Shown: in pieces, positions 1-3,000 of the stretch
Layout of the letters: the number at the start of each line of letters is the position of its first letter
How positions within the stretch are numbered: position 1 is the first letter of the stretch
From: Saccostrea echinata
Lineage: Eukaryota
Length of the DNA: 64,000 nt
Direction of reading: 5' to 3'
Assembly (NCBI RefSeq): GCF_033153115.1
Contig: NW_026889824.1
Location: forward strand, 3,100,001 to 3,164,000
Notes under the pieces: model-generated
The model's database searches: none
What the model was told of the DNA's origin: nothing
The model's input: the letters and a program-made list of their open reading frames with translations, nothing else
Made by a program: the position numbers and the translations under genes

Positions 1-3000
1 GCTCTGTCAGCCTGTCTCACAACCTGGGCCATCGCCACTTTTGTACCTCTTATATATGTGCCATTTATTTTGCTTTTTATAGGGTAAGTTACTGCCATCA
101 TAGATAAGCATAGGCTCAAAAGTTAATCCAGATTTTAAGATTTGATACCAAAAATCTTTACTTCCTCTGTTAGGAATTTAAAGTGGCACTACATGAACAT
201 ATCTTGTAATCTATTTAAGGAATATCTGTCTAGTTTTTGGTTTTATGATGTGATCAATCAGTTTGCTCGCATGATGATCAGCATAAACGCCGAAGGCGTA
301 TTTGCTTAACATTATAATGCAAGTAAACTGATTGAGCATTATCATAAAATCAAAAAAAAAAAAAAAAACAGGCAGTTTTTCCTTATATTTACATTTTCAA
401 CAGATCCTTCATTCAATTAAAAAAATATTTTTATTCAATAATTAGAAATCTCTGCAGGCCCTCCCAGTGTCTGTCATGTGCTGAAAAAATTTATGGGAAT
501 ATAAAGCTGTTAGCTTATATGTAGGTTTATCTCTGACAAAGACATTTAAAATATAGATATTAGGGTCTACTATTTGATTCTGAGTTTAAAGAATTGCTTT
601 TGAAACCAAGGAACTCCTTGAATCTCTATGCATAATTTCAAAATCTTTCTACTGCTTTTACTTTCAGGTTTGTTTTATTTCAAGTGTTCATGACACCAGC
701 CACCTCTTCCTTCAAACTGAACCTGAAGGATCACAAGGAGGATGTCAATATCCTTAACAACCAACTCATTGCTGCCATGGCAACTGGATTTTGTTTACTT
801 CCTGTTTTCCTTCAGATTCTCATTGCTCTGTATCAGAGAGGATTTCATGGAGTCTTTCACTTAGGCTTCTTTGTAAGTAATACCAGTAATTCTTTTGAGA
901 TGAACATTATCAATTTTATAAATCTAAAAAGTAGCTTTTGTTACAGTTCAATAAAAGTTTGTGGAATACACATACAGTGATATATATGTTACCAGATCTC
1001 AAGCATGATTTGATTGGCCTTTCAATAACTTTGGAAAAAAACAAAACAAATTACAAATGATTATAATGCAGTATTTAAATGGAAAGACACACACACAAAA
1101 ACACTATGAGAGACATTAGAAGTCTTCTGATTACATCCTTGAAGTTATTTGCATATGTAGACCAATAATATGTCTTTCATTTAATTTCAGTGTGAGTTAC
1201 TGTTCTTGTTGTGTTTGGCTGTGTTTCTGATGACTTTGATGAGTATCAGACACATTGTGGAAGCTGTAGGTACGGAGAGATCATCATTTTTATTGTCTTT
1301 ACTCTTCCTTGGAAAAAGCAACCAAAAGTTCAGATCTGCTCCAAACAGATTTTTGAATTCGCCTTCCAACACTCTGCAATCTTGCTTGCAAGAGTGTAAC
1401 AGAAAAAAAATTGATATCCTCATCCAGTTTTAAATATGAAGTAAATACATGTACTTATTCACATTAGATAATGCTTAATTATCTCTTGTGAGATTGTTTT
1501 GCAAATATCATTGAATTCTTTACAATAATGAATCACATTTAGGCCATGATTATCCATTTCAGAAGTTGATTAGAGTGTGTTTTGTGTCATTTATTGTATG
1601 TATCCCTGTATTCATGATTTAAATATGTACTCATGATTTACATGTACCTGTGATAGCAGCATAAATAATGGTATGCTTATAAACAGTTCTGTATATTATG
1701 AATTAAAACAGGTTTCCAGTACAGTCTGGTGATACAGTTACGCAGTCTCTGTGGGGGTGTGGCAGCCTTCCTGTCTTACCCAGTATTCCTAGAGCTGGGA
1801 GTGACATCACACTTTCTGTCATGGCTGCCATTTGCTGTTGGAGTTTATGCTGTATATGGAACACTGCTTAGTTATAGAAAACTTAAGGTTAGGGAGAAAA
1901 AATGTCAAGTGTCCAGCATAAATATAGAAACATGAGGTTTTCTCAATACATTTAAAACCTCTTCTAAAAGTTATTTTCATCAGTGTCATGGAATTCCAAA
2001 TGACAATACTCTGTGCATGTCTGTGCAAATTAGCCATTTTCATAATATCAGTGTTTAATCCTTGTGTCAATGTTCACTATGACAAAAGTCTTCTAACTTT
2101 ATTTCAATCAAGAATTGATCGTTATTACTTTCTTAAATGCTCACAAGCAATAACTTCTTTGGTTACTTTACAATTATTTCTTTTTCAGTTCATCTCCACA
2201 GTGTTCTTTGTGGTAGCTGTGAATTTGTCTTTGGTGTGGGCAATTAAATTGCCATGGAAATTATCATATCCTTTATACAATTTCTGACAAACAATGTATA
2301 CCATACATAATCAAAATAATGTGTTAGTACACATATAATGAAAAATTCTAAATATTGCATTAAAGACAATAACAGAATATGTAAATCATTGTATAACACT
2401 TAATCCTTTCTAGACTCCTCAAAAATTCAAAAGAAAAAGTTTTTTAAAAAAAAATTGATCTTTTATTTTAATAAGTTATATGTATCCCCTTAACAGTATA
2501 TTACATATACATTTATGTTTGGGATATCGCTGAAGATGATATTCTGTCTGATGATAGCTAACTCTGTCCTGTGTCTGACAGCTGTACATCTGTCCTCTCA
2601 CGGAACTCAGGCAGCCTTCAGTCTCCTAGTGGTATTACAAACCATAGGTAGGTGGTTATTATAGCTTACTGAGTGTAACATTGTATGTTATATATACTGT
2701 AGATTCCTTTTTTTTACGCCAGTACTTTTAAATATCATACATGTAAAGGACCCATAGATGTCAAATCGTGAAAACGTTAATTCGCGAGTGGGACTGTTTA
2801 TGAAAAATTTTAAATGTTTCGGCAATATAAAATAAAAGCCCTTAATTTTATTTCGCAAGTGGTGCTTCTTGGGAAATTACGCAATAGTAAATTCCTTGCA
2901 TATATTTAGGAATCTACAGTACATAGCACACAAAGTATAAGTGTATGTGTCTTAGGTCTACGCTTCTTCATACAAAGAGGAAAACTGTTGTATTGAAGTA

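What the first reader, a model, noticed from the sequence alone, without database searches (positions are those of the whole stretch)
2266..2504. Hidden AT-AC minor-spliceosome intron rescues an apparent premature stop
Seen: the exon starting at 2189 has no convincing GT donor before TGA 2285. ATATCCTTT, CCCCTTAAC and an AC 10 nt later match the established U12 consensus and restore the frame exactly. AT-AC introns are rare, usually ancient, often rate-limiting, and commonly mis-annotated by gene finders. Retention would give a stop within 22 nt (a likely NMD switch, inference).
Basis: partly seen in the sequence, partly recalled or inferred. Interest (0 to 1): 0.7.

Follow-up and report, generated by a model that had tools for sequence, protein, structure and literature searches.

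The report
Genuine AT-AC minor intron in oyster
An oyster membrane-protein gene carries a rare AT-AC intron that transcripts splice out exactly and that is likely cut by the minor spliceosome; it is an ordinary member of a known class, and its one extra feature is that a clam has the same intron starting with GT instead.

Summary
Confirmed, but ordinary. Window 2266-2504 is a 239-nt, phase-2 intron with a 9/9 U12 donor (ATATCCTTT), a branch motif CCCCTTAAC and an AC end. It is intron 9 of 18 in a 967-aa multipass membrane protein gene, a homolog of plant NO EXINE FORMATION 1; the other 17 introns are GT-AG. Assembled contigs from 5 of 6 public runs skip exactly these 239 nt. No other donor/acceptor pair or retained form was listed. 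The genome holds U11, U12, U4atac and U6atac genes. NCBI's Saccostrea echinata model already has the junction, so it is not mis-annotated there, but 7 of 10 GenBank-type mollusc models break at this site. A clam-like contig has the same 77-nt exon followed by GTATCCTTTT: same U12 intron, GT subtype. Read-through proteins suggest an AG end in Magallana and an AC end in Mytilus. In angiosperm NEF1 the site lies inside one exon, so the intron is not shown to be pan-eukaryotic. The NMD-switch idea is unsupported: 9 of 18 introns give a stop as early on retention.

The parts
2266..2504 (+). U12-type AT-AC intron, 239 nt, phase 2, intron 9 of 18
   Evidence: joints skipping 239 nt; registers; frame
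2266..2274 (+). U12 5' splice site ATATCCTTT (9/9 to RTATCCTTT; the other 17 donors score 2-5/9); predicted to pair with this genome's U11 and U6atac
2486..2494 (+). U12 branch motif CCCCTTAAC (7/9 to TTCCTTRAC); inferred branch A at 2492 or 2493, 11-12 nt from the 3' end; CCTTA complementary to U12
2503..2504 (+). AC acceptor; no polypyrimidine tract after the branch motif; an AG at 2495-2496 and a second in-frame AC at 2509-2510 are not among the listed joints
2285..2287 (+). TGA that would end a 405-aa product if the intron were retained
2189..2265 (+). exon 9 (77 nt; also 77 nt in clam-like locus L008)
2505..2647 (+). exon 10 (143 nt)
1..13234 (+). host gene, NEF1-like multipass membrane protein, 967 aa, 19 exons. 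Exons 1-4 and the start of exon 5 lie upstream in L003. In-window exons: 1-83, 668-872, 1191-1269, 1712-1887, 2189-2265, 2505-2647, 3214-3310, 4932-5139, 5592-5706, 6515-6662, 7053-7197, 11437-11573, 11829-11982, 12303-12443, 12815-13234

Best explanation
[quoted passage not shown] Shown: the sequence signals, the exact joint in assembled transcripts, frame restoration, the four minor snRNA genes in the genome, and a GT-subtype U12 donor at the same site in a clam-like genome. Inferred from the established pathway: U11 pairs with the donor (+4 to +9) and U12 with the branch motif, bulging an A at 2492/2493; U4atac/U6atac.U5 joins and U6atac takes over the donor; the AC 11-12 nt downstream is used because the AG 2 nt after the motif is too close. 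The intron is likely an old molluscan (or older animal) inheritance whose end letters have switched between AT-AC and GT/AG in different lineages. It has no demonstrated regulatory role.
For: Joint in 5 of 6 runs from 2 studies. Only AT..AC register among 6. C at donor +5 and 9/9 donor match. U12, U11, U6atac and U4atac each found once, over the Rfam cut-off. 6-bp predicted duplexes of the donor with U11 and U6atac and a 5-bp duplex of the branch motif with U12. Signals unchanged in the second copy on C3. L008: same 77-nt exon 9, then AT|GTATCCTTTT. YPF read-through at this position in Mytilus galloprovincialis, Tegillarca and Lottia models.
Against: No direct test of which spliceosome acts. 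The branch motif is 7/9, a score one GT-AG intron of the gene also reaches. The runs are assembled contigs labelled 'RNA?' by the tool; they cannot measure retention or rare joints, and one search left 18 joints unlisted. L008 ends 35 nt into the intron, so its 3' end is unseen. The Magallana, Mytilus, Lottia and cuttlefish states are inferred from proteins, not DNA.
Confidence: 0.95

Rival explanations
1. The intron is real and also acts as a regulated switch: conditional retention exposes TGA 2285 and sends the mRNA to NMD or nuclear decay, setting protein level.
For: Retention gives a 405-aa product with 9 exon junctions downstream. U12 introns are proposed to be rate-limiting (PMC8329584, passages).
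Against: 9 of 18 introns in this gene stop as early on retention, median 23 nt. No contig carrying the intron was listed in 6 runs, though contigs drop rare forms. PMC10639083 (title and passages) argues that neutral processes explain much of minor intron evolution.
Confidence: 0.12
2. A U2-type AT-AC intron of the sodium-channel kind, cut by the major spliceosome.
For: U2-dependent AT-AC introns exist (PMC1557818, passages).
Against: Those have G at +5 (PMC2831892, passages); here +5 is C, the donor is 9/9 U12, a U12 branch motif lies at the expected distance and there is no polypyrimidine tract after it. The clam ortholog also has a U12 donor.
Confidence: 0.02
3. The motifs are chance, and the gene uses a weak GT/GC-AG pair or is broken here.
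For: 25 of 165 GT/GC-AG pairs keep the frame; motif pairs arise in 3% of simulated windows.
Against: All those pairs delete 6-60 aa of a region that is contiguous in orthologs. Contig X1 runs through exons 8-12 with no letter between pieces.
Confidence: 0.01

Closest known systems
U12-type (minor) spliceosomal intron, AT-AC subtype
   Same: ATATCCTT donor, CCTTAAC branch motif near the 3' end, AC end, non-zero phase, one such intron among many major ones (consensus in PMC2831892; phase bias in PMC7367187; passages).
   Different: Branch motif begins CCCC rather than TTCC. The host is a gene family not met in the minor-intron papers searched. Crassostrea gigas alone has 275 minor introns (PMC11347168 Table S4), so the class is common in oysters.
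U12 subtype switch (AT-AC versus GT-AG at orthologous sites)
   Same: AT donor here, GT U12 donor at the same phase-2 site in L008. PMC2831892 counts 36 such clusters; PMC1557818 proposes AT-AG as an intermediate (passages).
   Different: Here several states may occur within one phylum, and possibly within the oyster family; only the two donors are seen in DNA.
Plant NO EXINE FORMATION 1 (NEF1, AT5G13390) family, host gene
   Same: Full-length, colinear profile match to Vanilla and Chara NEF1 (three segments, conditional E 2.6e-33 to 1.5e-13 against single sequences; library-wide E 3.4e-8 and 5.5e-8). About 19 or more predicted hydrophobic segments.
   Different: About 25% identity, shorter (967 versus about 1110 aa), no Pfam family, no fold match. 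The angiosperm gene has no intron at this site. Function in animals is untested.

Membership tests
U12-type AT-AC intron | 5' splice site RTATCCTT(T) with C at +5/+6 | tested here: met
   ATATCCTTT, 9/9; other 17 donors 2-5/9
U12-type AT-AC intron | Branch motif TCCTTRAC 8-30 nt upstream of the 3' end | tested here: met
   CCCCTTAAC 2486-2494, 7/9, ends 10 nt before the 3' end; range from PMC1557818
U12-type AT-AC intron | AT and AC ends actually used in transcripts | tested here: met
   239-nt skip in 5 of 6 runs; AT..AC is one of 6 equivalent registers and the only one with splice signals
U12-type AT-AC intron | Genome encodes U11, U12, U4atac and U6atac able to pair with the sites | tested here: met
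   predicted duplexes
U12-type AT-AC intron | intronIC/PWM classifier score | not testable with these tools
   intronIC not available; consensus matches were counted instead
U12-type AT-AC intron | Removal depends on the minor spliceosome | not testable with these tools
   needs a knock-down or in vitro splicing
U2-type AT-AC intron | G at donor +5 and U2-like donor | tested here: not met
   +5 is C; criterion from PMC2831892
Regulated NMD/retention switch intron | Unusually placed stop and measurable, condition-dependent retention | tested here: inconclusive
   Stop distance ordinary; no retained contig listed, but contigs cannot measure retention
Plant-animal conserved minor intron | Intron at the same aligned position in the plant ortholog | tested here: not met
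   41 of 50 plant NEF1 fragments span the site without a gap, many with unrelated intron-like tails at about residues 408 and 599; 8 of the other 9 start at 442-448 and also cross it. Protein-level evidence only.
NEF1 family (host) | Colinear full-length homology to plant NEF1 | tested here: met
   no tree or reciprocal test was run

The most novel reading that the evidence does not exclude
One orthologous minor intron displays a natural series of end states within Mollusca: AT-AC in Saccostrea and Mytilus, an AG end in the close relative Magallana (AT-AG would be the long-proposed intermediate caught in the act), a GT donor in a clam, and perhaps an AT end in cuttlefish. It sits in an uncharacterised animal branch of the 'plant' NEF1 family. 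That would make it a compact test case for the path and direction of subtype switching and for dependence on the AT-AC-specific factors CENATAC and DROL1/TXNL4B.
Probability: 0.35. Interest if true: 0.42.

Novelty: new member of a known kind. Interest (0 to 1): 0.2.

Why it matters
Modest. It fixes the gene model for a family that several mollusc annotations break at this very site. It adds one case of AT/GT subtype switching in bivalves, seen in DNA at the donor. It also shows that NEF1, described as a plant pollen-wall protein, has homologs in molluscs, annelids, a nemertean, a brachiopod, echinoderms and cnidarians. It does not reveal a new mechanism.

Tried and rejected
(1) NMD switch: stop distance is ordinary. 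(2) Plant-animal shared intron: rejected for angiosperms at protein level. AT5G13390/NEF1 was not found with U12 in full text or in the supplements searched. One file of PMC4892727 was not searched, the DROL1 and TTL preprint tables are images and their supplements are closed, so absence from Arabidopsis U12 lists is not established. (3) Alternative GT/GC-AG pairs and skipping of exon 9, 10 or both: skips frameshift; in-frame pairs are not among the listed joints. (4) Magallana genomic DNA: no match in viral contigs; genome contigs gave one weak bacterial match, L017, not followed up; metagenome contigs gave L008 plus two weak matches, L009 and L010, treated as unrelated. (5) Host function: no Pfam family; AlphaFold model mean pLDDT 77, all-helical; no PDB match at E<=0.001; the Atlas gave nothing for the last exon alone. 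(6) No listed run is on record as RNA; lack of contig cover in the intron is not evidence against retention. (7) The second copy on C3 is 99.5-99.7% identical over most of 30 kb, read as a haplotig rather than a paralog. (8) Mactra 'YPFPF' has no length change and may be the true spliced sequence; not counted as read-through. (9) Earlier findings: none returned.

Full report
Observation. The window reads ...TTATC|ATATCCTTT at 2266 and CCCCTTAAC-AGTATATTAC|ATATAC at 2486-2504. A 19-exon model, starting 2.5 kb upstream of the window in L003, gives an open frame of 967 aa that differs at 5 residues from P0001, which NCBI names uncharacterized LOC133178545 of Saccostrea echinata. Seventeen introns are GT-AG; intron 9 (239 nt, phase 2) is AT-AC. 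Its donor matches RTATCCTTT at 9 of 9, the others at 2-5 of 9. A donor followed within 60-1000 nt by a branch motif and AC arose in 3% of 200 simulated 64-kb strands, with no condition on frame or exon ends.

Transcript evidence. Six runs were listed, none on record as RNA, but their contigs skip the GT-AG introns and so behave as spliced mRNA. X1, X2 and X4 and X1, X4 and X5 join 2264 to 2504, skipping 239 nt, with 78 nt on the short side. X6 shows the same length of skip with 30 nt on the short side. X3 does not cover the site. That is 5 of 6 runs, from 2 studies. A CATAT repeat allows 6 registers for the same mRNA, and only 2266-2504 has splice signals. In X1 one contig runs through exons 8-11 with contiguous record positions. 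No other pair of sites in this part of the gene and no intron-bearing contig was listed; one search left 18 joints unlisted; contigs drop rare forms. Skipping exon 9, exon 10 or both shifts the frame. 25 of 165 GT/GC-AG pairs keep it but delete 6-60 aa. A second AC at 2510 is in frame and is not among the listed joints.

Machinery. G000 has one match each, over the Rfam cut-off, for U12, U11, U6atac and U4atac. Predicted duplexes: donor with U11, 6 bp; donor with U6atac, 6 bp plus 2; branch motif with U12, 5 bp. The order of events (U11/U12 recognition, then U4atac/U6atac.U5) is taken from PMC1557818 and PMC8329584 (passages), not tested. That the AG at 2495-2496 is too near the branch point to be used is my inference.

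Conservation. Metagenome locus L008 is closest to the clam protein P0007 among the 6 proteins tried. It carries exons 1-9, a 77-nt exon 9 as in the window, and then AT|GTATCCTTTT: a U12 donor of the GT subtype at the same phase-2 site. The contig ends 35 nt later, so its acceptor is unseen. Proteins give indirect traces. Models from Mytilus galloprovincialis (P0062), Tegillarca (P0032) and Lottia (P0016) read Y-P-F right after the exon-9 end, the translation of an RTATCCTT donor. A Mytilus edulis model has T just before exon 10, as an AC end would give. An 18-member cluster of Magallana-like genomic ORFs reads VSPWRFLR|YTFMF where the window reads VSP*QYIT|YTFMF. If those ORFs were called with TGA=W (7 W in 99 residues), the branch motif is kept and the end is most simply AG. 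A cuttlefish model reads FLNLSI before exon 10, compatible with TTCCTTAAC and an AT end; this is weak. Of mollusc models whose source I saw and that cover the region, 7 of 10 GenBank-type models break at this site (P0015, P0016, P0017, P0028, P0032, P0062, P0201; intact: P0006, P0013, P0034) against 1 of 10 RefSeq models (P0019). I left out P0008 (partial) and P0021 and P0024-P0027 (source not looked up). Some of the broken models have errors elsewhere, and I made no control count at other introns. Subtype switching is known: 36 clusters in PMC2831892, and AT-AG proposed as an intermediate in PMC1557818 (passages).

Host gene. There is no Pfam family. The Atlas lead was No exine formation 1 (0.85). 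phmmer reached Vanilla and Chara NEF1 at E 3.4e-8 and 5.5e-8, and a profile of 22 animal-side homologs aligns colinearly along both. Named homologs come from molluscs, annelids, a nemertean, a brachiopod, echinoderms and cnidarians. NEF1 is described as an integral membrane protein needed for primexine (PMC3220415, passages). The model is all-helical (mean pLDDT 77), the intron falls in a low-confidence loop (397-403), and no PDB fold matched. In plants the aligned site (about residue 454 of P0109) lies inside a block of about 190 aa: 41 of 50 fragments span it without a gap, many with unrelated tails near residues 408 and 599, and 8 of the other 9 start just upstream and cross it. So the intron is not shared with these plants, on protein evidence.

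Regulation. Retention would give 405 aa with 9 junctions downstream, so it would be an NMD or nuclear-decay substrate by the usual rule (PMC8329584, passages). But 9 of 18 introns stop as early (median 23 nt). Nothing here marks a switch.

Literature. Searches for 'no exine formation' with U12 (0 papers), AT5G13390 (8 papers, listing only, none on splicing by title), minor introns with mollusc or oyster (3) and NEF1 with animals (1; one search showed no listed paper with the term) gave no description of this intron. Molluscs are relatively rich in minor introns (PMC10639083, passages); C. gigas has 275 minor against 143,309 major (PMC11347168 Table S4 row). I saw passages only of PMC7367187 and of the DROL1 and TTL preprints; the preprints' gene tables and supplements could not be read and may bear on the plant question.

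Verdict. A real, textbook U12 AT-AC intron (confidence 0.95), already modelled correctly by NCBI. It is a new member of a known kind. The side result worth keeping is the AT/GT switch among bivalves and the possible AG end in a sister oyster genus. Interest 0.2.

Noticed in passing
G000:C3:7412001-7442000 (L005-L007) versus window 1-21000 and L003: A second copy of the whole region, 99.5-99.7% identical over most of 30 kb and inverted; likely an uncollapsed haplotig. P0001 appears to derive from the C3 copy (its longest contig has C3's length).
   Followed up: partly
window 2265-2269 and 2504-2508: A 5-nt direct repeat (CATAT) spans both junctions, and exon 10 starts ATATACATT, resembling the donor; it blurs the junction register in read mapping.
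   Followed up: yes
window 1-13234: NEF1-like proteins occur widely in marine invertebrates and in protists (e.g. Spironema); none of the hits whose names I saw was a vertebrate, insect or nematode, but only part of the hits were looked up.
   Followed up: partly
window 15243-16724, 22392-24038, 32645-34123, 43748-44263, 52197-53507 (minus strand): Tandem cluster of related B-box genes (PF00643, E 3e-7 for 22392-24038); several copies appear split across frames.
   Followed up: partly
window 7897-8419 and 9888-10910: 164-nt (3.2 copies) and 146-nt (7 copies, 96% match) tandem arrays inside the 4.2-kb intron 15 of the host gene.
   Followed up: no
window 47477-49213 (minus strand): Long ORF that looks, from recall only, like a retroelement reverse transcriptase; not tested.
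   Followed up: no
L008:6420-6602: The start of exon 9 with its acceptor is tandemly repeated (about three copies) just upstream of the true exon in the clam-like contig.
   Followed up: no
window 748-758 and 7244-7252: Other ATATCCTT matches (one inside exon 6, overlapping a CCTTAAC; one inside intron 15) are not at listed joints and look like chance.
   Followed up: partly
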